64,000 nucleotides of DNA from Antedon mediterranea (lineage: Eukaryota; Animalia; Echinodermata), in contig NC_092671.1 in assembly GCF_964355755.1 (NCBI RefSeq), positions 11,656,001 to 11,720,000 on the forward strand, in the 5' to 3' direction. The position numbers and the translations under genes are program-made. The notes beneath the pieces were generated by a model, which saw only the letters and a program-made list of their open reading frames with translations, was not told where the DNA came from and ran no database searches. Positions 1-58,600 of this stretch are shown here, one piece after another. Every line of letters starts with the position of its first letter. Position 1 is the stretch's first letter.

Positions 1-66
1 ATATCGCATAACATATGGTCTAAACACGCATTAAATAGCATGATTAGAAATCCTGTTTGTCATGCA
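1..66 (-). ncRNA. Box H/ACA snoRNA, family A, partial (5' hairpin only), CCT5 intron 9
   Basis: Near-identical to the 5' hairpin of the full copies at 417-551, 1990-2123 and 2455-2589; cut by the window edge. Confidence 0.8.
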
Positions 67-130
67 GTCTCATGATTTTAAAAAATACCTGTAACTATGT
101 ATAAATATAAATTGAATGATGGTGTCTTAC

Positions 131-3100
131 CATTGGTACCACTGTTGAGGCAATCAATACCTAAACGTGGGTTGTTCTCTTTCAGCTGTTTAGATTTCAC
201 CTCCGATAGAGTGCGAATCGGGTGCAGGCCGCTGTTCTCAGCCAGGGCCATTGGAATGCTTTCCAAAGCGTCTGCAAAGGCTCTCATTGCATACTGTTCA
301 ATGCTGGATATCTAAAAAGAATATCAAAATGTGTGCTTACATGTGTATCAATCAATATTACTACTATTAACACTGTCTTACATATTAAATACAGTTCCTA
401 AGATGAGTATCTGTTACAATGTAGCACCATAATCAGTATGCAGGGGCGCACGGTAGGCTGCCCGACAATGGTTCTTGGTGCTTTAATCTTGCATGACATA
501 TGGTCTAAACACACATTAAATAGCATGATTAGAAATCCTGATTGTCATGCATACATATTTGCCAAATACTGTATATTTCTTTAGAATGGTTTGTCTTTGC
601 GAATGAATCAAAGTCCTCTTACATTGTCGGCTCTTTCGCTAACTGCTAGTGCACAGGCAATCTCGGCAGCTCCGCCACCATACACGATATGATTACTACG
701 TACAAGATTACGTGTAACACACAGAGCATCATGCAGCGCTCTTTTAGCTTCTTCAATAATCTGTAAGAAAATAGTACATTATTCATTATAAATTCAATTT
801 GAATAAGATGCAAGATAATTATTTGCAGTAATGTTACAGTCATATCAGTATGCAGGGTCTACAATAAATGACCCGACAATGGTTCAGACTGTTGATTGCT
901 TTAGCATGAACTCTAGCCTGAAAAGTTACAAATTAACCAATCAGGAATTCCGATAGTCATGCAGATTTCTACACACCACATGTATGTTAAAAAAAAAAAG
1001 AAATTATCTCACCATTCTGTTTCCTCCTCTGATAAAGATGGTAACAGCTTTAGTATTTGGACAGTCTTCTATGACAAGCATGTGGTCTTTAGTTGTGCCA
1101 AATGACAACTCTCTTACGATGCCAGCTGTGCCAAGCTTTTCTGCCGTTAACTCTTGGAATCTGGGTACGATCCTTCCACCGGTTGCAATGGCAATTAACT
1201 GCAATTAATATTAATACAAGAGAAACATTATTCATACAATTACGTAAATTGAAACAAGAAATAAGAAAATTCAGAATTGTAACTATTATCACAGTCATAT
1301 CAGTATGCAGGGCCTACAATAAATGACCCGACAATGGTTCAGACTGTTGGTTGCTATAGCATGAACTCTAGCCTGAAAAGTTATAGATTAACCAATCAGG
1401 AATTCCGATAGCCATGCAGAATCTTGATTTACTTTTGTAATAAACTGGAAACATGTAAATTTTACACATATCAAAGTTTATGTGACAACAAAATGTGATG
1501 TGCCCATGTGGATACCACCATATTTGGGTATTTTTTTGTCAAACTAGCTAGTACCATTACGACAACAACAATGCGGTATCACTGATTACCTCAATTTCCG
1601 GTCCTCCAACCCATCGTACAGCAGGTAGTTCATTCTGTAACAGTAAATGATTGGCTTCATCATCAAATCCCCATTGACAGATTGCTAGGTTAGCTCCAGT
1701 GTCCTTCACTTGTTTGATCATCTCTGTAAACTTCTCTTTCTCGTAAGCCTGCAGCTTTTTGTAGTCTTCAACAGACTTAATGTCCAGTTTGTGCGTCGTC
1801 TTTGGTTTCGGTGGCTCAAAAGGACACGTCAAAATGGCCATCTTCGCATCCTTGATTTCCTAAAGTGATAATTCATGCAAAGTTTTATTGCAACTTATTG
1901 AATTTAATATACCTAAGCAAACTTTTCATAACTAGTTTTTAGTATTTTTCAGAGTGATAATTTCACTTGATAAATATTTAAGGTACTTATGATGTAGCAC
2001 CATAATCAGTATGCAGGGGCACACGGTAGGCTGCCCGACAATGGTTCTTGGTGCTTTAATCTTGCATGACATATGGTCTAAACACACATTAAATAGCATG
2101 ATTAGAAATCCTGTTTGTCATGCTAAATAAATATAGCTTAATAACAGGTATCTAAACAACATGAGGTAATGAGGTATGTCTTACTTTTGGCATCTGTGGG
2201 TGGCTGAAATCTTTATCAACTACTACTCCCTTCACCAACATTGTGTCTTCCAGTTTTCCTCCTACTTTGCCGTCAACTTTGATCAGTTCAAAATCAACAT
2301 CTTTTCTTTCAAAGTCTGCGACAGACATGATTGCTTTTACAGCAATTTCTGCCATCTGCTTATGACAACGATTGATACTGTAGGACAGGGACAAAATATA
2401 GTTTAAAGTGAATAATATATTTACTTATTTAAACATTACACAATGAATTGTTAGAAGTGTAGCACCATAATCAGTATGCAGGGACGCACGGTAGGCTGCC
2501 CGACAATGGTTCTTGGTGCTTTAATCTTGCATGACATATGGTCTAAACACACATTAAATAACATGCTTAGAAATCCTGTTTGTCATGCACTTTAAGTGGA
2601 AAATTTATTAACACTAGAATCCCTAGTAAACAAAACGTCCCCACTTCAATATGGGTACTATACGAAGACTCCCATACTTACATTTTAGAACCTAGTGTTG
2701 TCATTGCCACTTTCACTAGTGGTTCTATGTTATCCTTACTAACTTCAAAGCTTTCAGCTATCTTGTCCAGCCTGGCACTGGCAATTTGAGATGCTAATTC
2801 GTAACCATCGGCGATGCGAATCGGGTGAATTCCACGATCTAAAAGTTGCTCAGCTTGTTCAAGTAAAGATCCAGCCAACACTTTAAACATAGGATAACAA
2901 CTTATTAATTGCAAAAAATAATGGCAAAAACAGATGGAGGTGAAATTGAGATAATGTTACTGGAGTTTTTCTTTGTAAAAAAAATCATCCTCACCTACAA
3001 CTCCTGTTGTGCCATCACCAATTTCATCATCTTGTGATTTGGAAAGTTCCACCATCAACTTTGCTATTTGATGCTGTACATCCATTTGTCCAAGAATAGT

Positions 3101-6100
3101 GGCTCCATCGTTTGTGACTGTTACATCACCATCAGGACTAACTATTAATTTGTCCAAACCTAGATATTTAAGAGAAAATACCTGATAATAACCTCTGGTA
3201 AAAAGTAATTTATACTGTAGAAGAAATTTGCTTGATTAATTAACAATGAAAATATTTATTATGAATCAGATCAACTTCTTTCTATTGTTCTCACCATTTG
3301 GTCCAAGTGATGTTTTTAAAGTGTTTGCTACAGCTTTTGCTGCCATGATATGCGACTAAAAAAAACAAAGAGAAAAGTAATCAAGCATAACATTATTTAG
3401 TGCACAGCTGATATACTTTGTAGCCTATGTATGTGGTCAAACCATATCGTTTAAAATTAGAACAGTAAAATACAAGTAACAACGTGCAACATTTAACTTT
3501 TGGGTCGAAACATCCCAATTTGTGGGCCGAAATGTCTCACTTGCCTCACTTTAGACCAAATTCATATTAATTTTTTTTGGTATTTATCAAGTTTTTAAAG
3601 GTGTTTATCAATCAAACCAAAGAATATATATAACAAGAATGAGTATTCCGCGATTTTTCCATGAGAAATTTGTAACAGAGAGCTCCAGAGAGTGATGCCC
3701 GCCCTCATAAGGGCGGATGTATAGAGTACAGAAAGAAAATACTGCAACTTTACCTACGAAGTAGCTTCGTAGATAGAACGTAGGCTACGTTGTTGGCTTC
3801 GTAGGTTCCATTGTTTGGCTTCGTAACCTCAATAAACAACTTTCAATGAGCTACGTTCTGAACTTCGTAGGGAGTTCGTAACCAAAATAAACAACCCTAC
3901 GATGTTCTTAGTGAAGTAAGGTGTGAAATTAATGTGTTAAATTTAATTGGCGGAGGACAAAGTTGTAAATTAATAAAAAATAAATAATATTTTTTAATCG
4001 TAATATTTTCCTTCGTGCGTGTTTACCTACTCAACGGCAAATATAAATTTCCCACGATGTATAACGTAGAGAGAGACACGATCCAACACAGGTGAACCGC
4101 AATGAACAGGCCAACTAATAAACATAATATAGCGAACGTCCCATCCAGAAACGATGCCGAGAAAAAAAGATCGTAAACAATTCATTCTAAATATAGCATC
4201 AGGACGTTCAATCGGTCGTTCAAAAAGACTGCCGACAGAACGACCGTAATTAATACAGACCTAGTTTTTTTTTGGGTCACTTGGCATGAAACGCGATACT
4301 CTCTGCTTACCCGCAATCTCTCACATGTTTTTTTTTTTTAGGGTGGCTACCGTCTGACGACGATAAAACAGTAATTAAGATCGTGTACCTGGATTTTGTG
4401 TCACATGACATGAAACATAATACTCTCTTTAAACTGCTCAGCTCACATGTTTTTTCCCCTCCAAATTCTGGTCGGGCCTTTTTCTTTATACATGTCGTAA
4501 TCATTTTAAAAGGCCTATTTATTTATGTTAAATCTTAATATGGAATATATATTTATTTTGCATATATTTTGTTGGTGTCCTAGCCTAGTTGTCGTTTTTA
4601 TAATTCGCTAACCCAACAAGGTAGGAATAAATAATTTATAGTGTAGGCCGCCGAAACAGGCTAGTTAGGCCTAGCCTAGCCTCGACTCTCTCTACGTGAG
4701 CTGATGTCCACCGGCCCGATGTCGTTTCGTCGGCGGATTTCCGTCCAAATTAGGATAACAAACAATACATCGTAGGCTACAAACAATACATCGTAGGAGA
4801 GAACAATTGCCTACGATGTAGGGCGGCTACAAAAATTGACCTACTATCTTTAGGTAGGATTTTAATTAGCAAACAATACATTGTTTGTTTGCATTGTCCA
4901 TGCCATGCCATGCTTCTACGAACCACCCTACGATCGAGGCGTAGCCTAGATTTCATAACAATACATCGTAGGCTACGAACAATACATCGTAGGTAGGAGA
5001 GAACAATACATCGTAGGCTACGAACAATACATCGTAGGAGAGAACAATACATCGTAGGTAGGAGAGAACAATACATCGTAGGCTACGAACAATACATCGT
5101 AGGAGAGAACAATACATCGTAGGCTACAAACAATACATCGTAGGAGAGAACAATGACCTACGTTCTACCTACGATCTACCTACGAAAGCCTACGCGTAGA
5201 TACGAAGCAGTAATTTCTTTCTGTACTGTACATACTAAATAAGACTTGATTTAATAGATATTGTACATGTCACATTAAATAGAATTATGATAATATATTT
5301 CGCAATTGTAAACTATTTTATAATACATATTTATTAACAAACTAGTGTACATTCACTTACAGACAGTTATTTACTAACATGCTAAATTAGTTCACAAAAA
5401 AGGCCTAACACAGCAACACCAAAATCAACGAATCGTTACTCAGCACGGCCTATTCTTTACCATTGCAGCGTACTACTCTACGCCCGGTAAATTAAGTATT
5501 GTTTTAATGATATAAATTAGTATAAAATACATGTTATTTATAGGATAAAATGTTAAATGTCATTAACATTTATTTGTTTTACCAGAAACAAGTTAAATAT
5601 AGGAATATTATTAAACTATCCTTCGTGAAAATGCGTAAACACCAACACGCCCGGTCACGCTATCGTAGCGCCCGGTTGATAAAGCGAACTGTTTATACGG
5701 CAGTTTTTACTAAATAAATTGCATAAAACGAACAATTAAATATCCAAATAGCATTTAACATGATGTTGGCATGTAGTTGATAACATTTTTTATCATGAAA
5801 ATACTACCGGTGGTCCAGCCCTTGATTAGTGAAACCGTCACAAACAGTTGTATACATCCCAGATACATCCTCACTTATGGCGGCGCCCTACCACATGGAC
5901 AATATTACTGTTACAGGGAAAATCGCGGATTACTCATTCTTGTTATATATATTCTTTGATCAAACCAACTCGTACTCGCTAGCAGTAGCCTATTTTAGGC
6001 TGATAGGAGTCTAGGCCTAGCCTATCTTTTTATTAGGTAGCCTACTAGACTCTAGCTAGCCCTACCTACTCATAATTAGCCATTAGTCTACTCCTAGATA

Positions 6101-6315
6101 AATAAACAATTGCTGGCAGAGGCATGGCCTATACCCTCCTACACTAGCCTAGACCATCAGTCATGGCTGCAGCCCATTATAGGCCTAGCCGTGGGACAGT
6201 TAGCTACCTTGTGTGCATCAATTCCAGATAGTCGTGTTTTGGATTCTTGATCTTTGATGATAATAAACGGTCTGCCATATTCATCAAATGCCAGTGAACC
6301 CATAGATCCACTCAT
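131..6315 (-). CDS. CCT5: T-complex protein 1 subunit epsilon (chaperonin CCT5), coding exons 1-9; last exon lies before position 1
   Basis: GT-AG exons in consistent phase: 6208-6315 ([24 protein letters not shown]), 3295-3355, 2995-3159 ([16 protein letters not shown]), 2682-2880, 2185-2377, 1590-1859 ([25 protein letters not shown]), 1013-1198, 623-760, 131-311. These motifs are diagnostic of CCT5. Confidence 0.97.
417..551 (-). ncRNA. Box H/ACA snoRNA, family A, CCT5 intron 8
   Basis: Minus strand: UGCAUGACA...UGUCAUGCA hairpin, H box AGAUUA, AGCACCA...UGGUGCU hairpin, ACA+3 nt. 3' pocket GAACCAU/CUGAUU is complementary to 18S AAUCAG-UU-AUGGUUC. Confidence 0.92.
829..964 (-). ncRNA. Box H/ACA snoRNA, family B (SNORA15-like 5' pocket), CCT5 intron 7
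   Basis: GCAUGA...UCAUGC hairpin, H box AAAGCA, ACAGUC...GACUGU hairpin, ACA. 5' pocket UAUCGGAAUU/CUAGA matches 18S UCUGG-UU-AAUUCCGAUA; 3' pocket GAACCAU/CUGAU matches AUCAG-UU-AUGGUUC; each 3' pocket arm starts 14 nt before its box. Confidence 0.92.
1284..1418 (-). ncRNA. Box H/ACA snoRNA, family B, CCT5 intron 6 (terminal box AUA variant)
   Basis: Close paralogue of 829-964; H box AUAGCA; terminal box reads AUA instead of ACA; both pockets intact. Confidence 0.88.
1990..2123 (-). ncRNA. Box H/ACA snoRNA, family A, CCT5 intron 5
   Basis: Near-identical to 417-551; H box AGAUUA and ACA box present. Confidence 0.92.
2455..2589 (-). ncRNA. Box H/ACA snoRNA, family A, CCT5 intron 4
   Basis: Near-identical to 417-551; H box AGAUUA and ACA box present. 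Confidence 0.92.
3727..5225. mobile_element. Non-autonomous DNA transposon in CCT5 intron 1 with subterminal CTACG/CGTAG repeats
   Basis: Terminal inverted repeat TACAGAAAGAAAATACTGC / GCAGTAATTTCTTTCTGTA (one mismatch; terminal TA may be the TSD). No transposase ORF. Confidence 0.8.
4757..5160 (+). repeat. Minisatellite ACAATACATCGTAGG(CTACGA/AGAGA) inside the transposon end
   Basis: Many ~20-25 nt units visible directly; explains the spurious ORF 4777-5076. Confidence 0.9.
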
Positions 6316-6819
6316 TTTGGTTTCAAATGTGTTAAATTCTTGAAAGAAATGAGAACAAAGCTATACGATTACAACGGATTTTATACTTCGTTCTTCCAAA
6401 AATCCTTCTAGAATCCTCCACACACACACGACGACCGACCAAACCCCATGCGCGCACTCGGTGCAGTTACGGGTCACTGGGTTTCTAGTTAAGATGGACA
6501 TGCGTACAAAATATTTAAATACAGAACCTTGCTGGTAAAAAAAGTGATATCTTTATTTTTTTTTCCCTATTTCTTTTTATGTAAATTAAAATTATTTTTA
6601 TTGATTGTTTTATATACTAGATTGTAAAAGTAATTGGGATAATTTTTAGATTAATGTTGGTAATTAGAATTTTTTCAGACTGAATAGGTCATATAGAAGT
6701 TACCGTGGGAACCATAGACGCAATTAAATCACTTCCTGTTTCGATTGGTAAACAAACGCTGCTGCCAGAGAGCACACACGGCTTTTATTATTATCCAATT
6801 TTCTACCTTTTCTCGGAAA
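6316..6819. promoter_or_regulatory. Bidirectional promoter region between CCT5 and TEX49-like gene
   Basis: Start codons ~505 bp apart, divergent. HSE-like TTCTAGAA 6406-6413, X-box-like GTTACCGTGGGAAC 6699-6712, ETS ACTTCCTG 6731-6738, inverted CCAAT 6744-6748, forkhead GTAAACA 6748-6754. Confidence 0.7.
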
Positions 6820-7688
6820 ATGTCTTTCTTCAATGTGACTGCTTTGGGCTACCAGGATCCTATTAGAGCTCAAGCTATCAATCCTAATCCAGAATACTCG
6901 TACAGTCTCGTGCATAAAATCCCAGACAATTCATACGTATCGTTTAGGCCACCGACTTCGCGTTTACCACCAATCAACATGGATCAGCATAACAAAGTCG
7001 TTCAACCTGGCGATTATTCAGAACACAAGGGGTCATACGTGGAATACACAAGAAGGCTAACTAAGCATACAAGAACACAAAATGGTATGTATGGCCCGGG
7101 GGTAGGGCCTATGCCTGGGTCTAGAATAGGTTATGTAACAGAATAAAATGTTGTTTGTAAGTCTAGGCCTAGGGCCTATAGAGGCTAGCTAGGCCTAGAG
7201 AGGCTAGCTAGGCCTATTCAATATTATATTCTAGGCCTAGCTTAGGCCTATTCTGATTCTCCATTTTACATTTTTTTTAGCACCAAATGACCTGTATAGA
7301 AATCCTTTAACATCCGCTCAAGGACATGGATGGTGGGATAAAAAAGACAACATAGAAAAACGAGAACCCTGGACACACGTACCCCGACATCGGCATGTTA
7401 ATAGTGAGATGACAAGGTAATTACTAGACTAGGCCTATATTATTATTAATATTATTAATTAATATAATAATAAATAGTTTATAAATTCAATAATTATACA
7501 AAAATTAAAGGTATGAAATAACATTATAACAATAGTATGTAACGCAAGATTAAGTTAAATGTAAACATACCTTTTGAACAAAGGCCTTAATAATAATTTG
7601 TCATGATAAAGTATCATTTTTTTCTGTCTTCTTTTACAGCTTTGTGAATGAAATGGCAATTACCAACAGGGAATTTTCCTTATTTTGA
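6820..7688 (+). CDS. TEX49: TEX49/SPMIP11-like sperm/ciliary microtubule inner protein
   Basis: Exons 6820-7084, 7281-7416, 7640-7688 in phase: MSFFNVTALGYQDP...RLPPI...PNDLYRNPLTSAQGHGWW...EPWTHVPRHRHVNSEMTSFVNEMAITNREFSLF*. Resembles TEX49 as recalled. AATAAA at ~7764. Confidence 0.85.
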
Positions 7689-9572: not shown

Positions 9573-27981
<18,409 letters not shown>

Positions 27982-30850: not shown

Positions 30851-30921
30851 CGCCCCAACCGAGACTCGAACTCGGACCGCCTGCTTGATAGGCAGATGTC
30901 CTAACCATTAGACAACTGGGC
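30851..30921 (-). pseudogene. tRNA-Asp-like sequence (ATC loop) inside an element flanked by (TA)n
   Basis: A-box-like TTGTCTAATGG, anticodon arm CTGC/GCAG, T-loop GTTCGAGTC, T5 terminator; acceptor stem poorly paired. Confidence 0.65.
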
Positions 30922-31396
30922 TTTCATGGTATTGTTCAAACTCGATTGGATATCGACTCTTTAACATTCTCGGCGTGGTACGGCGGAACAGCACTAGTCC
31001 TCAGTTGTACGCACGCGCACCAGAGATCAAATTGATACACCCTCATATATATATATACAGTTTTTAAGAACACTGTAGCTGAAACTCCCGGGGGGTCACT
31101 TGTATATAAACCATTTTACTGAAAAATACTATGGACTTGAACTACCATTTACCAAAATCCAGTGTTCTCTAAAAAGACGGCAGAAACAAGGCCACGCCAG
31201 AGAGGGCGCAATATTTGTACTGGTTCCCGGCATGATCTGCGCATGGCCAAAGAGACATGGCAAAATCACGAACGTGTTTTGACAAGTTTATCGCTCGTCC
31301 GCGCGGTGCATGACGACGATGATCAAGAGTGGTCACAGTTGAATGATTTTGTCCTAGGCTATGTTTCGTGTTCTTCTGCTGATGCGAAAACTCTAG

Positions 31397-35362: not shown

Positions 35363-38300
35363 TGTTATATATGCATGTTGTAACGACGCCTTTGGCGTGC
35401 CATAATTGTTCTCTCTCTTCTGAATAAATGTTTAGTTGTACACGCTGTGTTTAGAGCCCTTACTTTACATTATAATTTACTATATACAACATAAATTTTG
35501 GCGACGAGGATGAGCATGGCAGTTATAATAGGAAAGGTGGAAGAATTTGATTCATCTTTAGAAGCTTGGGATTCGTATACCGAACGGTTAGATCAATATT
35601 TTGTAGCCAACAAGGTCGATGATGATCGGAAGGTACCGGCATTGCTTGCACTCATCGGACCGAAAACGTACACGCTACTAAAGAATTTGTGTTCACCGGA
35701 GAAACCAGCGACACTGTCTTACGCAGATTTAATTACAAAGCTCACGACACATCTTTGCCCAAAGCCATCGGAAATCGCTGAACGATTTCGGTTCTACAAA
35801 AGAGAACAGCATAGCGGGGAAAGCATTGCTTCATACATTGCTGAACTACGAAGGTTAGCCATTCATTGCAATTTCGGAAACACTTTGACCTCGACACTGC
35901 GAGACATTTTCGTCTGCGGGTTGCGTCAAGAGAACATTCAGAAACGTTTACTGGCGGTTCATGACCTTAAATTAGATGATGCAATTAAAACCGCTGTAGC
36001 TATGGAAACAGCAAGTCGTGATGCTACAGAATTTCAGAAAACAAGGACACCAAATACTACAGGTGAGAGCAATGTAAATAAGTTTACTACAAAAAATTAC
36101 CAATCTAAAAGACACCAAGGTCATAAACAAAGTAAAGCATCTGCACACTGTTACAGATGTGGTAATACAGGCCATAAAGCTGATCGCTGCAGGCACATAC
36201 ATACTGTTTGCAATTACTGTTCCAAGGAAGGACATCTAGAAAAAGTATGCATGAAGAAAAAGAAAGACAATAATGTGTCAAAGCCTAACACTGGTAACCT
36301 TAAAAAGAATGTACAGTATGTACAGGGAGAGGAAGTCAACTATGAACCTATGCTATATGCAAATCATAAGTCAAAAGTGGAGCCAATTATAGTGGTTGCA
36401 TCTATAAATGGAAAGAAAATCCCTATGGAATTGGACACTGGATCATCAGTATCACTGATTCCAGAGTTGACCTACAAGAAAGCATTCCAGTCGTTACCAT
36501 TACAGAAAACTACAATTAGGTTGAAAACATATTCTGGTGAGACTATTGTACCAATAGGCATGCTAAATACTAAAGTGTGTCTTAACAATCATGAAGAAAT
36601 TGCAGAGTTATTGGTCGTTCCATTGAACGGACCAGCCTTATTCGGACGTGATTGGCTGAAGAAGTTTAAATTAGATTGGCATGAAATAAAAGCCATTGAT
36701 GAGGCAAAAGCAACAACTAAAGGTCTGGATGAAATTTTAGAAAAACATAAAGCTGTTTTTAAAGATGAATTGGGGAAACTGGAGAATATTAAAGCTAGTA
36801 TCTACATAACTGAAAACAGCAAACCACAGTTCCACAAGCCAAGAAATGTCCCATATTCAATGAGGGACAAGGTCGAAAAAGAGCTTGGACTACAAAATCA
36901 AGAGATTATTAGCCCTGTGAAATACAGCGAATGGGCAGCTCCCATTGTACCTGTACAGAAGAAGTCAGGGCAAGTTAGAATCTGTGGTGACTTTAAAGTT
37001 ACAATTAATCCTGTGATGAAAGTAGAACAGTACCCATTACCTAAAATAGAAGATATCTTTGCATCTCTAGCAGGAGGTCAGAAATTTACAAAAATTGACC
37101 TTAAACAAGCATATTTACAGATGGAAGTGGAAGACACTTCAAAGGAACTGTTAACTATTAATACGCATAAAGGGTTATTTAGATATAACCGACTTCCATT
37201 TGGTGTAGCCTCAGCTCCTGCAATCTGGCAAAGAGCGATGGACCAGGTACTGCAAAATGTACCCTTTACATCTTGCATATTGGATGATATGATCATCAGC
37301 GGAAAAACAACTGAGGAACACTTAAAAAAACTTGGACACAGTTTTAGAGAGATTAGAGAAATACAACTTAAGAGTAAATCGTGAGAAATGTGAGTTTTTC
37401 AAAGAGGACATCACATACTGTGGTCATGTGATAACTGAAAAAGGGTTACAGAAATCCCCTGACAAGATACATGCAGTTATCAATGCGCCAAAACCTGACA
37501 ACAAACAGCAAATGCGATCATTCTTGGGTTTAATAAATTACTATCGTAGGTTTTTGCCAAACTTATCGTCCATAGTCGCACCCCTGAATGAACTCTTACA
37601 AAATGAAAAAACTTGGAAATGGACAAATTCATGTGATGAAGCTTTTAAAGCGGTCAAAGAACTTATAACTTCAGACCAAGTTCTATGCCACTATAATCCT
37701 GAACTAACAGTTAAACTAGCCTGTGATGCATCGCCATACGGCCTTGGTAGCGTTCTTTCACATATTATGCCAGACGGAAAGGAAAGACCAATTGCATTTG
37801 CTTCTCGCTCCTTAACAAAAGCTGAAAAGGGCTATGCCCAAATAGATAAGGAAGCATTAGGACTTTATTGGGGAATACAAAAGTTTCATACTTACCTGCA
37901 TGGCCGACATTTTACTTTGGTTACAGATCATAAGCCGCTAGTAAGCATCTTGCATCCACAAAAGTCAATTCCAGCAATGACTGCTGCAAGACTACAAAGA
38001 TATGCCCTTTACCTATCTGGACATACATATGATATCGAATATCGCAACACGCATGCTCATGGGAATGCTGATGGATTGAGTAGATTGCCTATACCTACAG
38101 ATGTGATTGATTACGTCGATGAGGCATCTACATTCTACACCTCCCAGATTGAAAGGTTGCCGATATCAAGTACAGAAATACGGAAAGAAACACAGAAAGA
38201 TCAGATTCTGTCACACGTATTAGATACTGTTTTAAAAGGGACTAACAAACTTCCTGACAAAGAAGCGTACACACCCTACAAGCGCCGTCTTACAGAACTT

Positions 38301-39783
38301 ACTTGCCATCAAGGGTGTTTAATGTGGGGAAATCGAGTACTAATTCCAGATAGACTTCGTGCTGCTATTCTTAATGAAATACATGATGGACACATTGGGA
38401 TTGTTAAGATGAAAAACTTAGCTCGCTCTTACATCTGGTGGCCTAACATTGATTGCGAAATTGAACAAGTTTGTAAATCTTGTATCGGTTGCCAGCAAAC
38501 AAGCAAAATGCCAAAATCCGCACCAGTACACCCTTGGGAGTGGCCATCTGCCCCATGGGATCGCTTACATATAGATTTTGCAGGGCCATTCATGAACTCT
38601 ATGTTTTTAATTGTTGTTGACGCCCATAGCAAATGGCCAGAAGTTTATCCAATGAGATCTACTACAGCACAACTGACTATTGAGAAATTGCGAATTATGT
38701 TTAGCCAATATGGTATTCCCAGACAAATTGTATCGGACAACGGTCCTCAATTTAAGTCGGAGGAATTTACAGATTTCATGAAAGCAAATGGTATTCGACA
38801 TACCACATCATCCCCATATCACCCCAGAACAAATGGCCTAGCAGAGAGATTTGTGCAAACGTTTAAATTGGCCATTAAGCAAGCAAGAGGAAACAGTTGT
38901 TGTTCATTACAGCAACATCTGAGTACATTTCTGTTTAAGTACAGAACAACTCCTCATACACTTACCAAGGAAACACCTGCAAAATTACTCTACGGACGCA
39001 ATCTACGAACGCGTTTGGATCTTTTGAAACCGGATCTAACAGCTACTGTCTTGAAAGGTCAAGATCGTATGAAGTTTGCAAAACATTGTGGAACCAGTAT
39101 CCGAGAGTTTCAACCCGGACAATCAGTAATGGTCCGTGATTATCGTAACACAAACCAGAAATGGATACCAGCTCAAATACAAGGAAAAACTGGTCCACTA
39201 TCTTACACAGTTGACACAGGACTTGGAACAGTATGGAGGCGTCATGCTGATCAACTACACCCAACTATGGTGAATGTCACTCCTACAGAAATATTCACCC
39301 AGGATGACCATGTTCCAGAAATACTAAATCCAACAGACGCTCCACAATCAGATAACCTTACTCGAAATGTTAACGCCGACACACCTGTTACAACTGGCAG
39401 CGCATCTCTTACACAAGAAACTGCACCCATACGTCGATATCCAAAAAGAAATAATATTCGCCCACCAAAGAGACTAGACTTGTAAATAGACATGAAACAA
39501 GAAGTTGATTTTAGTTGAACTTTATTATTCATTATTGCATTGAAAGATATTATACAGAAAACTTTGATTGAAACATTATAATTACGAATGATTACAGAAC
39601 AGTACAGAACTCTAGAATCTAGTCTTTACTATTCTTAAAATGGTAGGGAGGATGTGTTATATATGCATGTTGTAACGACGCCTTTGGCGTGCCATAATTG
39701 TTCTCTCTCTTCTGAATAAATGTTTAGTTGTACACGCTGTGTTTAGAGCCCTTACTTTACATTATAATTTACTATATACAACA
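35363..39783 (+). mobile_element. Full-length Ty3/Gypsy LTR retrotransposon (Mag/SURL-like)
   Basis: Identical 129-bp TG...CA LTRs (35363-35491, 39655-39783); TSD CGAAT; PBS TGGCGACGAGGATG (35499-35512) complementary to the tRNA-Ser(GCU) 3' end; purine tract at 39642-39654. Confidence 0.97.
35510..39485 (+). pseudogene. gag-pol polyprotein (2 CCHC knuckles, protease DTG, RT, RNase H, integrase) with one frameshift
   Basis: ORFs 35498-37384 and 37332-39485 are split inside RT just after ILDD at an A7 run; domain order PR-RT-RH-IN. Confidence 0.93.
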
Positions 39784-45283: not shown

Positions 45284-45356
45284 GGCTTCTTGGCGTAGTG
45301 GTTATCACGTTTGCTTAACACGCAGAAGGTACCTGGTTCGAGCCCGGGCGAAACCT
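45284..45356 (+). pseudogene. tRNA-Val(AAC)-like pseudogene, copy 1
   Basis: D, anticodon (TTTGC-TTAACAC-GCAGA) and T arms intact; two acceptor-stem mismatches; followed by a T-run. Confidence 0.75.
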
Positions 45357-55600: not shown

Positions 55601-58600
55601 TCTTTCGTTGCTTTGTCTTTCAAACTTTGCAACATAAATCTGTTTTGCAGTCATATCTCATGATGAGATTTTTATGTCATTGGTAATATTAAGAAACATA
55701 AAATATGACATTAATGAATGAAGGTCGTGATAAAACAGAGAACGATTGTCTTTAAGTTTTAGAGTCGTGGTCTACATATATTGTTATGGATTGATGTTCT
55801 TGGATTTTCTACTGGTGATAAAGTTAGATTATAAATTAATTATTCTTTTGGTACCGTTATTAATGTAGGATAGAATTTATTTAATGATATTTAAGCACAG
55901 TCAACAATAATGTTATTGATTTAGACTATTTATGTTAGTTAAGTTAGGCTTGGCCTACTCTGATGTATTTGTACTGAATGCTCAATATTGGAAACACTCT
56001 TTTAGGGAATGTGAGACTTGATCCGGCTACCTCATGCTCATGCTCGAATCCAAGTCGAGCTAGTGATCTGGTGGTTGTAGCTTCCAGTCTCACCAGAGAA
56101 TTACTCCCTTAAAAGTGCTCTCAAATCTACTGAGCATTCAACATAATCACGACAGAGCAGGACAAACCATACTTACTTATTTAACGCAAAGCTACTTTGT
56201 ATTAGTTAAATCATCATCATATGTTAGTTTATGTTCACTTTATAACATGTTAGTCACAGAGCATTGAACTCAGGTTATCAAGAACATTGAATCTATCTTC
56301 TACAGAATATTACTTTCACACATTGAATTCTGGTTTTATAGAACATTACGGTAATGAGATGAAAAATTGGTGACAGTGGACAAATTGCTGATTGGTCTAA
56401 TGACGAGGCATCTGCTTACCAAATGGAACACCTGGGTTCAAGTCTCTTATTAATATTAAGCATTTGGACTTACTATGAAAGTTATAAGAATAGCATTTCA
56501 ATTTTTTTTTAAATTAATGTTTAAACAAGTAGTATTAAACTTTTCAATTTATAGCCAGTTTTGTCAAAAAAAAATATAAAAACCGTCAATCATGTTAATT
56601 CAACAATCTTTCCAAAAAGATCAAATTGTCATTCACAATCATTGAAATCTCTAAAATATAATTTATTGTTTTGTAAAATGCATGTTTGCTAATAAAATAT
56701 TATTGAAAAACTTCAGAAAAGAAACAAATCCAAAAAGTTGAATTTTTTCGAGCACTGTAGATTTAGTGTAATCTGTTATAGACCTTTTTGCATTTAGTCT
56801 AAATCCCTTTAAATCCCTCTCTTAATTTTGAACAATGCATTCAGCTGTAAACAATGCCATTATGACTTCAAATGTACATGGTGTTGAATAAGTGGATTAT
56901 CTGTCATATAAAGAAGGATCACTATTAACGTCAAGTTTTGAAGTTGAGGCATTAAATTCATCTTTTAATATTTAAAATGTAAAAACTTTCTTAAATATTT
57001 TTTTGAATATTTTTAATATGGAATTTGGAAGAGATTATAAAACAACCATAGAGCATTTAAATATAACTAGAGAGGTAACTACGTGACAGCTATTATAGCT
57101 GTGATTGTGCTGGAGTTGACACTCTAGGGGTACAATACATCTATGGATACAAATGCTTTTCGATCAATCGTCATTTTGATCACTTCTGTCTCTTTTTTGA
57201 TTCAGTAGTTTTGAATGAAAATGGGAAACTCATGGTTTATTTAAGCATGGTTTATAATAAATAAAGCTCTGTCTACACTAATTTGATGTGCTCAAATATG
57301 GTAGTTATATGCCCAAATATGGTAGTGATATGACATCATCATGTCCATATATGGGCACATCACATTTTCTGTCACATAACATTTGATAGTGTAGACAGAG
57401 CTTAGTATTTTAGTGTACTTACTTGGTTTCACCAAGACTAAGCTCAATAGGACCATCAGGTTTGTCCTTGTACAATGAGATATTACCATTTGAGTTGAAT
57501 TTTGTGATGGGGCAAGGTAAATCATCCCCAGTTTCTAACGCTCTATGAACTTCTTCAGAGGTGACAGCTAGGTACAAAAAAAAAAAAAAAAAAATTAAAA
57601 CAATGAAAAGATGTTATTCCTCGGTTCTGTTAACAATATACAGCAATGCGGTGACATTAAACGCATACAATAACCTTTTAGCGTCACTAAAACATTCCAC
57701 TAGTCAAAATATTTTTCACCATGCTATGAAATGAACCATCTTGCTGGTATAATAATATAACTTTCACATGATTAAAACATTCAAGAAAAGAATAATAAAT
57801 AACACCATTGTTTTTTAAAAACTTTTCTTATCAATTGTTATTCATAATTTCCAAATATAATTCTTACATAAACGTAAATGGTAACATTTTAAAAAATGTC
57901 ATTACATCATGTCATACTTTTTTCATTTGTCTCACTCTTATATTTGGTATATTATCTTGTCATTTATACATTAAGAATAGGGCTAAACTGGAGTTTATCT
58001 CCTGTACACCTAATCCCAGTATAGCCTCATTATGATGCAAATGAAATCCAAACCATGAACACACAAAAACACTTACCAACATTATCTAATCTTTGTAAAT
58101 TTGGTAAAATTTTTAACACAGTCATTCTGTACATGTCACCTGCGGCGCAGGGATTGTCCGCCAGCCACAACACCCTCAACTTTGGAAGTTTGCGCAAGTA
58201 CCAGATCTCAGACAAATCCGCAATGCAATTTTTTCTTATGTATAACTCGACGAGGTTCGGACAGTGTGTGAAGTCTTCCAAAGTGGTGAGGCTGTTGACA
58301 CTTAAACCAATTATTTCCAGACTTGGCATCTGTCTTAGTATTGACACCTGAAAGACATTGCAACACAAATAAAATATGATGAAATTTATAAAATTGTTTA
58401 ACTGCATAGAAGGAGTTTGTGGTTCATTTCATAAACTTGCAAAACAAGTTTGCTTATGTGGTAAAAATGAGAAATATTGGTATATTTTACTTTTTTACTC
58501 TTATGGAGTGTACCAAGCAATTGTTTATGTGTATATGTTATATTTAAATTTTAATAATAATACTTTGTTAGGAAGGTACACTTTTTGAAAAAGTCACTGG

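What the first reader, a model, noticed from the sequence alone, without database searches (positions are those of the whole stretch)
1..2589. Array of six H/ACA snoRNAs, one in each of six consecutive CCT5 introns (A-A-B-B-A-A)
Seen: introns 4-9 each hold one ~135-nt sense-strand element with hairpin-H box-hairpin-ACA layout, conserved between copies while the flanking intron sequence is unrelated. Introns 1-3 show none. Family A has 4 copies and family B has 2; the families share the 3' pocket but differ in stems and the 5' hairpin. Known: intronic snoRNAs favour translation/chaperone host genes, and in human the paralogue CCT6A hosts SNORA15 and SNORA22. Inference: lineage-specific intron-to-intron amplification with concerted evolution, making CCT5 a multi-copy snoRNA host. 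I do not know of this cluster being described.
Basis: partly seen in the sequence, partly recalled or inferred. Interest (0 to 1): 0.85.

Follow-up and report, generated by a model that had tools for sequence, protein, structure and literature searches.

The report
Six retargeted snoRNA copies inside CCT5
A feather star's CCT5 chaperone gene carries six related small-RNA sequences, one in each of six successive introns, that likely guide ribosomal RNA pseudouridylation: the five complete copies keep one predicted target site while two sub-families are predicted to aim their second guide at different sites, an uncommon but known kind of gene arrangement.

Summary
Confirmed. A crinoid CCT5 gene (96.6% to Anneissia japonica; introns 2-8 spliced in a public run) holds six sense-strand 135-nt elements in introns 4-9, order A-A-B-B-A-A; the sixth is cut by the window edge. 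The five complete copies fold as H/ACA RNAs, with boxes 14 nt from both pockets and compensatory stem changes. All five hit Rfam SNORA42/SNORA80 below threshold. Paired by eye with vertebrate rRNA, the shared 3' pocket fits 18S U109 (12-13 bp). B's 5' pocket fits 18S U1367, the SNORA15 site (15 bp). A's best fit is 28S U4558 (10 bp, about 50% likely). A and B are paralogues over their whole length whose 5' pockets differ by 6-7 substitutions. Not a MITE. Expression, modification, crinoid rRNA sequence and concerted evolution are untested. One-per-intron snoRNA duplication and target switching are published; Xenopus has three tandem SNORA42 copies. I found no paper on this cluster or these target pairings. 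The scan has noted similar arrays of other snoRNAs on other DNA, not this one. New variant of a known kind; interest 0.3.

The parts
6208..6315 (-). CCT5 coding exon 1 (ATG at 6315)
   Evidence: intron 1 not covered by the read laying
131..3355 (-). CCT5 exons 2-9 (3295-3355, 2995-3159, 2682-2880, 2185-2377, 1590-1859, 1013-1198, 623-760, 131-311); the gene runs off the window start
   Evidence: open frame, GT-AG; spliced contig over introns 2-8
2455..2589 (-). H/ACA snoRNA, family A, intron 4; H box AGAUUA, ACA at 2460-2458
1990..2124 (-). H/ACA snoRNA, family A, intron 5; ACA at 1995-1993
1284..1418 (-). H/ACA snoRNA, family B, intron 6; H box AUAGCA, variant AUA box at 1289-1287
   Evidence: one contig of organism C covers 1267-1420 with 9 differences and no gap
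829..963 (-). H/ACA snoRNA, family B, intron 7; H box AAAGCA, ACA at 834-832
   Evidence: two compensatory pairs in organism B
417..551 (-). H/ACA snoRNA, family A, intron 8; ACA at 422-420
1..66 (-). 5' hairpin of a fourth family-A copy in intron 9, cut by the window edge; 3' half and boxes not seen

Best explanation
Six paralogous box H/ACA snoRNA-type genes sit one per intron in introns 4-9 of a crinoid CCT5 gene; they are likely released from the spliced introns and likely guide pseudouridylation of ribosomal RNA, with the 3' hairpin of the five complete copies predicted to target 18S U109 and the 5' hairpin predicted to target 18S U1367 in family B and, less surely, 28S U4558 in family A (human numbering of PMC6984369). 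Shown: host gene, splicing, copies, fold, boxes, 14-nt spacing, compensatory changes, homology of A and B. Inferred: one ancestral SNORA42/80-like gene entered CCT5 and was copied into neighbouring introns (cis-duplication); 6-7 point changes in the 16 nt of the 5' pocket, made inside an intact stem frame, sent the two sub-families to different uridines while the 3' pocket stayed fixed; later copying gave 4 A + 2 B. A's left arm still fits 18S U572, the vertebrate SNORA42/80 site (7 bp), and that site shares five letters 3' of the uridine with the 28S site, so changing mainly the right arm would be enough for the switch (inferred). Release by debranching and trimming and assembly with dyskerin, NOP10, NHP2 and GAR1 follow from established H/ACA biology and were not tested. 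Odds by step: functional H/ACA guides 0.9; 18S U109 0.9; B to 18S U1367 0.88; A to 28S U4558 0.5.
For: Fold and boxes: in 5 of 5 complete copies the H box lies 14 nt and the ACA/AUA box 14 nt from the top of the respective pocket arm. On 23 named stem pairs 115 of 115 cells pair and 6 pairs changed on both sides between A and B; slid controls pair 31-43% (five related sequences and a structure drawn from them, so about one A/B event per pair). Independent: organism B changes both sides of two adjacent pairs in the intron-7 copy and none of the pocket letters covered. Rfam: 5 of 5 complete copies hit RF00406 SNORA42/80 (27-49 bits, E 2e-8 to 7e-3); B's 3' hairpin alone hits only RF00406 (E 6.7e-5); B's 5' hairpin alone ranks RF00398 SNORA15 first of 4 (E 0.0065). 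Targets paired by eye on human/Xenopus rRNA from the supplement of PMC6984369: 18S U109, 7+6 (A) and 7+5 (B) Watson-Crick pairs; 18S U1367, 10+5 with one G-U; 28S U4558, 4+6 in human and in the animal 28S fragment L081. Expected chance sites in 7 kb: 3e-5, 1e-4, 3e-6, 3e-3 (uniform bases). SNORA42/80 guides 18S U109+U572 and SNORA15 guides U1367; 28S U4558 is pseudouridine in four amphibians, lizard and chicken. All exceed the 8-bp minimum (PMC6049503).
Against: No mature RNA, protein binding or modification was seen. The crinoid's own rRNA was not read. The 28S site varies: Xenopus breaks one of the four right-arm pairs, and the A pairing needs one spare guide U or a single unpaired uridine. 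No exhaustive target scan was run and snRNAs were not checked. All Rfam scores are below the gathering thresholds (49<70; 30<47). A's 5' hairpin alone hits neither SNORA42 nor SNORA15. The intron-6 copy has AUA for ACA. The direction of the pocket changes cannot be rooted without other echinoderms.
Confidence: 0.8

Rival explanations
1. Same snoRNA array, but family A's 5' pocket does not guide 28S U4558: it is an orphan or relic of the 18S U572 guide, or aims at 18S U8, an snRNA or a crinoid-specific site.
For: A's left arm pairs 7 of 7 with 18S 574-580, with at best one pair on the other side. 18S U8 gives 3+7 pairs (one G-U) in textbook register. The 28S fit is the weakest of the four (expected 3e-3) and fails in part in Xenopus.
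Against: The right arm is identical in 4 of 4 A copies and unchanged in organism B, which points to a live target; 7+1 pairs is at the lower limit; no pseudouridine is marked at 18S U8 in the map, whereas 28S U4558 is a mapped site.
Confidence: 0.4
2. Family B is a chimera made by recombination between a SNORA15-type 5' hairpin and a SNORA42/80-type 3' hairpin, or it reached U1367 independently, rather than showing a shared ancestor of the two vertebrate families.
For: The two halves of B rank different Rfam families first. Shuffling of antisense elements between families is reported in vertebrates (PMC6984369).
Against: A and B 5' hairpins align in register with two compensatory pairs, and B's 5' hairpin also hits SNORA42 weakly (E 0.75); much of the SNORA15 score may come from the shared target and short stem words.
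Confidence: 0.3
3. Only one or two copies are expressed; the others are recent, decaying duplicates.
For: AUA box in the intron-6 copy; 93-96% identity fits recent copying; no expression data.
Against: Pockets are invariant within each family, stem differences keep pairing, and organism B has sequence over the same introns.
Confidence: 0.12
4. The elements are a MITE, SINE or snoRNA-retroposon family inserted in introns.
For: Repeated ~135-nt elements with unrelated flanks; SNORA80-family retrocopies are common in vertebrates (PMC1687206).
Against: 6 of 6 are sense-strand, one per intron, in one gene; none elsewhere in 64 kb; longest word shared by the 15-nt flanks is 3-4 nt and there is no A-tail; in run X10 summed contig depth over the A copies is about 100-120 against 30-50 nearby, while a true repeat in intron 6 reaches 214,000 (a rough measure).
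Confidence: 0.02

Closest known systems
Vertebrate SNORA42/SNORA80 (ACA42, ACA67; Rfam RF00406)
   Same: 3' hairpin sequence and pocket for 18S U109; start of the 5' stem; tandem copies: Xenopus tropicalis has three within 3.4 kb.
   Different: Scores 27-49 bits against a cut-off of 70; the 5' pocket no longer fits 18S U572; hosts are KHDC4 and ODC1, not CCT5.
Vertebrate SNORA15 (ACA15; Rfam RF00398)
   Same: Family B's 5' pocket fits 18S U1367 and its 5' hairpin ranks SNORA15 first; host is a chaperonin-subunit gene (CCT6A); two copies 2.6 kb apart in Xenopus.
   Different: 30 bits against 47; B's 3' hairpin is SNORA42-like with a U109 pocket, whereas the predicted 3' targets of Xenopus SNORA15 were found unmodified; CCT5 and CCT6A are different subunits.
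SNORA25 of amphibians, reptiles and birds
   Same: Guides pseudouridine at the equivalent of human 28S U4558, the best fit for family A's 5' pocket.
   Different: Uses its 3' hairpin, partner target 18S U801, TAF1D cluster; no Rfam match to SNORA25 here, so the shared target would be convergent.
Cis-duplicated intronic snoRNA arrays (chicken, platypus; Drosophila Psi18S-1377a-e and Psi28S-3316a-e)
   Same: Paralogues in neighbouring introns of one host with conserved guides (PMC2653536); five-copy H/ACA sets in the fly annotation.
   Different: Here two sub-families with different predicted 5' targets alternate in one array; the fly 3316 copies seen lie 9 Mb from fly CCT5.

Membership tests
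Box H/ACA guide snoRNA | Hairpin-hinge-hairpin-tail fold | tested here: met
   5 of 5 complete copies, z -2.0 to -3.4; 115 of 115 stem cells pair, 6 compensatory pairs
Box H/ACA guide snoRNA | H box (ANANNA) in the hinge and ACA box 3 nt from the end | tested here: met
   H box 5 of 5; ACA 4 of 5, AUA in one; sixth copy cut. The mature 3' end itself is inferred
Box H/ACA guide snoRNA | Pocket 14-16 nt from the box (range recalled) | tested here: met
   14 nt in 10 of 10 pockets of the complete copies
Box H/ACA guide snoRNA | Two-arm complementarity of 8 bp or more around a target uridine | tested here: met
   3' pockets 12-13 bp to 18S U109; B 5' pocket 15 bp to 18S U1367 (by eye), on vertebrate rRNA only
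Box H/ACA guide snoRNA | Target of the family-A 5' pocket | tested here: inconclusive
   28S U4558 4+6, 18S U8 3+7, 18S U572 7+1; crinoid rRNA not read
Box H/ACA guide snoRNA | Sense orientation in a spliced intron of an expressed host | tested here: met
   splicing of intron 9 not seen
Box H/ACA guide snoRNA | Stable small RNA bound by dyskerin that installs pseudouridine | not testable with these tools
   only contigs available, no raw small-RNA reads
Rfam RF00406 SNORA42/SNORA80 | Score at or above 70 bits | tested here: not met
   27.2-49.2 bits; no gathering hit
Rfam RF00406 SNORA42/SNORA80 | 3' pocket for 18S U109 | tested here: met
Rfam RF00406 SNORA42/SNORA80 | 5' pocket for 18S U572 | tested here: not met
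   A: left arm only (7+1 at best); B fits U1367 instead. Not filed as a member; a likely homologue
Rfam RF00398 SNORA15 | Score at or above 47 bits | tested here: not met
   30.0 and 26.3 bits for the B copies
Rfam RF00398 SNORA15 | 5' pocket for 18S U1367 | tested here: met
   family B only
scaRNA (H/ACA type) | CAB box (ugAG, motif recalled) in an apical loop | tested here: not met
   none in the loops shown (by eye)
MITE/SINE | Target-site duplication or A-tail, dispersed high copy number, random orientation | tested here: not met
   whole genome not available

The most novel reading that the evidence does not exclude
The array is a preserved record of guide evolution: family B is the surviving form of an ancestral deuterostome snoRNA that guided both 18S U1367 and U109 from a chaperonin gene, and vertebrate SNORA15 (in CCT6A) and SNORA42/80 are its split descendants; family A jumped from the small to the large ribosomal subunit by a few pocket changes and installs the 28S U4558 pseudouridine that frogs, lizards and birds make with the unrelated SNORA25.
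Probability: 0.2. Interest if true: 0.5.

Novelty: new variant of a known kind. Interest (0 to 1): 0.3.

Why it matters
It gives a compact case in which duplication and retargeting of an H/ACA guide can be read base by base in one gene, predicts three pseudouridines in echinoderm rRNA, and offers a testable link between two vertebrate snoRNA families that Rfam keeps apart. All copies fall below Rfam thresholds, so threshold-based annotation would miss them. It does not change how snoRNAs are thought to work or spread.

Tried and rejected
No whole genome is held, so no genome-wide copy count. My recollection that fly CCT5 hosts Psi28S-3316 was wrong: 2 of the 5 copies were seen, at chr2R 21.33 Mb, CCT5 at 12.18 Mb. 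My first numbering of A's 28S target as U4643 (SNORA30/37) was wrong; the site is U4558. Run search: no RNA holder listed. Low-depth intronic contigs of X9 (depth 3-9 against 306; one runs from exon 8 into intron 7) may be pre-mRNA or DNA and show nothing about mature RNAs. X15 and most X14 cover were uninformative. Scans for rDNA loci: 0 in viral contigs; one chance phage hit, L082, with no Rfam match; one 612-nt animal 28S fragment, L081. CCT5 loci from metagenomes: 80 kept of 543 confirmed in a partial scan; model R1 found nothing in 80 of 80, but only 3 of 80 have a gap of 150 nt or more, so only L016 is an informative negative. One search had helix 1 off by one column; one search replaces it. 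In one search the 3' arm of B was mis-picked; one search corrects it. A's 5' hairpin hit to trypanosomatid TB11Cs5H3 (E 0.024) is taken as a generic hairpin match. Paper searches that found no description of the cluster: (open-licence library only).

Full report
Host gene. The - strand encodes CCT5. Nine exons from 6315 down to 131 give 499 codons without a stop, 482 of 499 identical to Anneissia japonica CCT5 and 77-83% to six other animal CCT5 proteins compared (exon 6 search), so the animal is a crinoid. Introns 1-8 are GT-AG. One contig of run X9 (RNA by guess) skips introns 2-8 at these places.

Observation. Six elements lie on the sense strand, one each in introns 4-9: A 2455-2589, A 1990-2124, B 1284-1418, B 829-963, A 417-551, A 1-66 (cut). 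A-A identity is 94-96%, B-B 93%, A-B 61-64%; flanks are near shuffled levels, with 3 of 10 downstream pairs slightly above. A model built from the five complete copies finds only these six in the window. Introns 2 and 3 are too short for a copy; intron 1 has no Rfam match at E<=1.

Anatomy. Each complete copy folds into two hairpins (z -2.0 to -3.4). The H box lies 14 nt after the top of the 5' pocket's right arm and the ACA box (AUA in intron 6) 14 nt after that of the 3' pocket, in 5 of 5 copies. On 23 named stem pairs all 115 cells pair and 6 pairs differ on both sides between A and B, against 31-43% pairing for slid controls. These are five related sequences and a structure drawn from them, so this is about one event per pair. 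A second crinoid (organism B, run X10) adds independent support: of 7 substitutions in the covered 95 nt of the intron-7 copy, four form two compensatory pairs, two are unpaired, one breaks an apical pair, none touches the 3' pocket arms; the covered 60 nt of the intron-8 copy has 3 changes, none in the predicted target-pairing letters.

Family. Rfam gives nothing at gathering level here. At E-value level 5 of 5 complete copies hit SNORA42/SNORA80 (RF00406; 27-49 bits, cut-off 70) and both B copies also SNORA15 (RF00398; 26-30 bits, cut-off 47). Split in halves, B's 3' hairpin hits only SNORA42 (E 6.7e-5) and its 5' hairpin ranks SNORA15 first (E 0.0065; SNORA35 0.22; SNORA42 0.75). A's 5' hairpin alone hits neither.

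Targets. I paired the pockets by eye with human and Xenopus rRNA from the supplement of PMC6984369 (parts 1-4 of 12 read); no exhaustive scan was run and the crinoid's own rRNA was not read. The 3' pocket (arms GAACCAU and CUGAU(U)) pairs 7+6 (A) or 7+5 (B) around 18S U109, the SNORA42/80 site. B's 5' pocket (UAUCGGAAUU and CUAGA) pairs 10+5, one G-U, around 18S U1367, the SNORA15 site. A's 5' pocket (CAGGAUU and CCAU) keeps a left arm that fits 18S 574-580, but gives 7+1 pairs at best for U572. Its best two-sided fit is 28S U4558: 4+6 in human and in an animal 28S fragment (L081), 3+6 in Xenopus. That uridine is pseudouridine in four amphibians, lizard and chicken, guided by SNORA25, but not in mammals or fish. 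18S U8 (3+7, one G-U) is a rival without a mapped modification. Expected chance sites in 7 kb are 3e-5, 1e-4, 3e-6 and 3e-3. The experimental minimum is 8 pairs (PMC6049503, abstract and passages).

Mechanism. Shown: gene, splicing, copies, fold, boxes, spacing, compensation, A-B homology. Inferred: each intron releases one H/ACA RNA that assembles with the four core proteins (established knowledge) and modifies pre-rRNA, so one CCT5 transcript would deliver six guides for 18S U109, two for 18S U1367 and four for, probably, 28S U4558. History, inferred: one SNORA42/80-like gene entered CCT5 and was copied into neighbouring introns; a few substitutions redirected the 5' pocket. Concerted evolution is not shown. 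The excess of changes in the intron-7 copy between two crinoids (7 in 95 nt against 5 in 141 nt of flank; P 0.04-0.06) hints at copy replacement. Lineage specificity has one informative outgroup: a coral-like CCT5 locus with the same intron positions has no copy in introns 6-7 (L016).

Transposon alternative. 6 of 6 copies are sense-strand in one gene; no target-site duplication or A-tail; summed contig depth over the A copies is two to three times that nearby, while a real repeat in intron 6 stands thousands of times higher (rough, and 2200 pieces and 90 loose-end rows were not shown).

What is known. Cis-duplication into adjacent introns is described as the main route of snoRNA expansion in chicken (PMC2653536, passages). 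Xenopus has three SNORA42 copies within 3.4 kb and two SNORA15 copies (supplement rows); the fly has five-copy H/ACA sets (PMC13228274, passages and supplement rows). Target switching by point mutation and shuffling of antisense elements are documented, with only 39% of H/ACA orthologues keeping their targets between frog and human (PMC6984369, first parts of sections 6 and 11). Host change is common (PMC3511168, passages; PMC13736004, abstract only; PMC1687206, passages). SNORA15 in CCT6A is confirmed (PMC6466398, table passage). Searches found no description of snoRNAs in CCT5 or of these target pairings; the library lacks most subscription papers, and one scanned supplement file of PMC13228274 could not be searched.

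Verdict. Real, well-formed and most likely functional; a new variant of a known kind. The part worth following is the retargeted 5' pocket and the possible link between SNORA15 and SNORA42/80 (probability 0.2). Interest 0.3.

Noticed in passing
window 3618-5958: CCT5 intron 1 is swollen by nested inverted-repeat elements: arms 3618-3660/5916-5958 (95%), 3722-3745/5207-5230 and 3767-3784/5157-5174, with a 17-24-nt tandem array at about 4760-5150; probably nested non-autonomous DNA transposons.
   Followed up: partly
window 1463-1547: Fragment of a very high-copy repeat in intron 6, 5' of the snoRNA: hundreds of contigs with loose ends in three runs and 4 further matches in the window.
   Followed up: partly
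window 6718-7143 (+): SPMIP11-like gene (PF22593, E 7e-14) head-to-head with CCT5, about 500 nt between the starts; likely a shared promoter region.
   Followed up: partly
window about 12400-24700 (-): Exons of a TRPM-type channel gene (PF18139, PF25508).
   Followed up: partly
window 35495-39482 (+): LTR retrotransposon pol region (protease, RT, RNase H, integrase) in two overlapping frames.
   Followed up: partly
window 30851-30922 (-) and 45284-45356 (+): Two tRNA-like sequences; the first has the unusual anticodon ATC, the second has mismatched stems; probably pseudogenes or SINE heads.
   Followed up: no
window 58033-58428 (-): Leucine-rich-repeat exon (PF12799).
   Followed up: no
window 1287-1289: The intron-6 copy has AUA in place of the ACA box, yet a contig of organism C covers the copy with 9 differences and no gap.
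   Followed up: partly
L081:202-612: A bacterial genome assembly holds a 612-nt contig that is the 3' end of an animal-type 28S rRNA gene: contamination.
   Followed up: no
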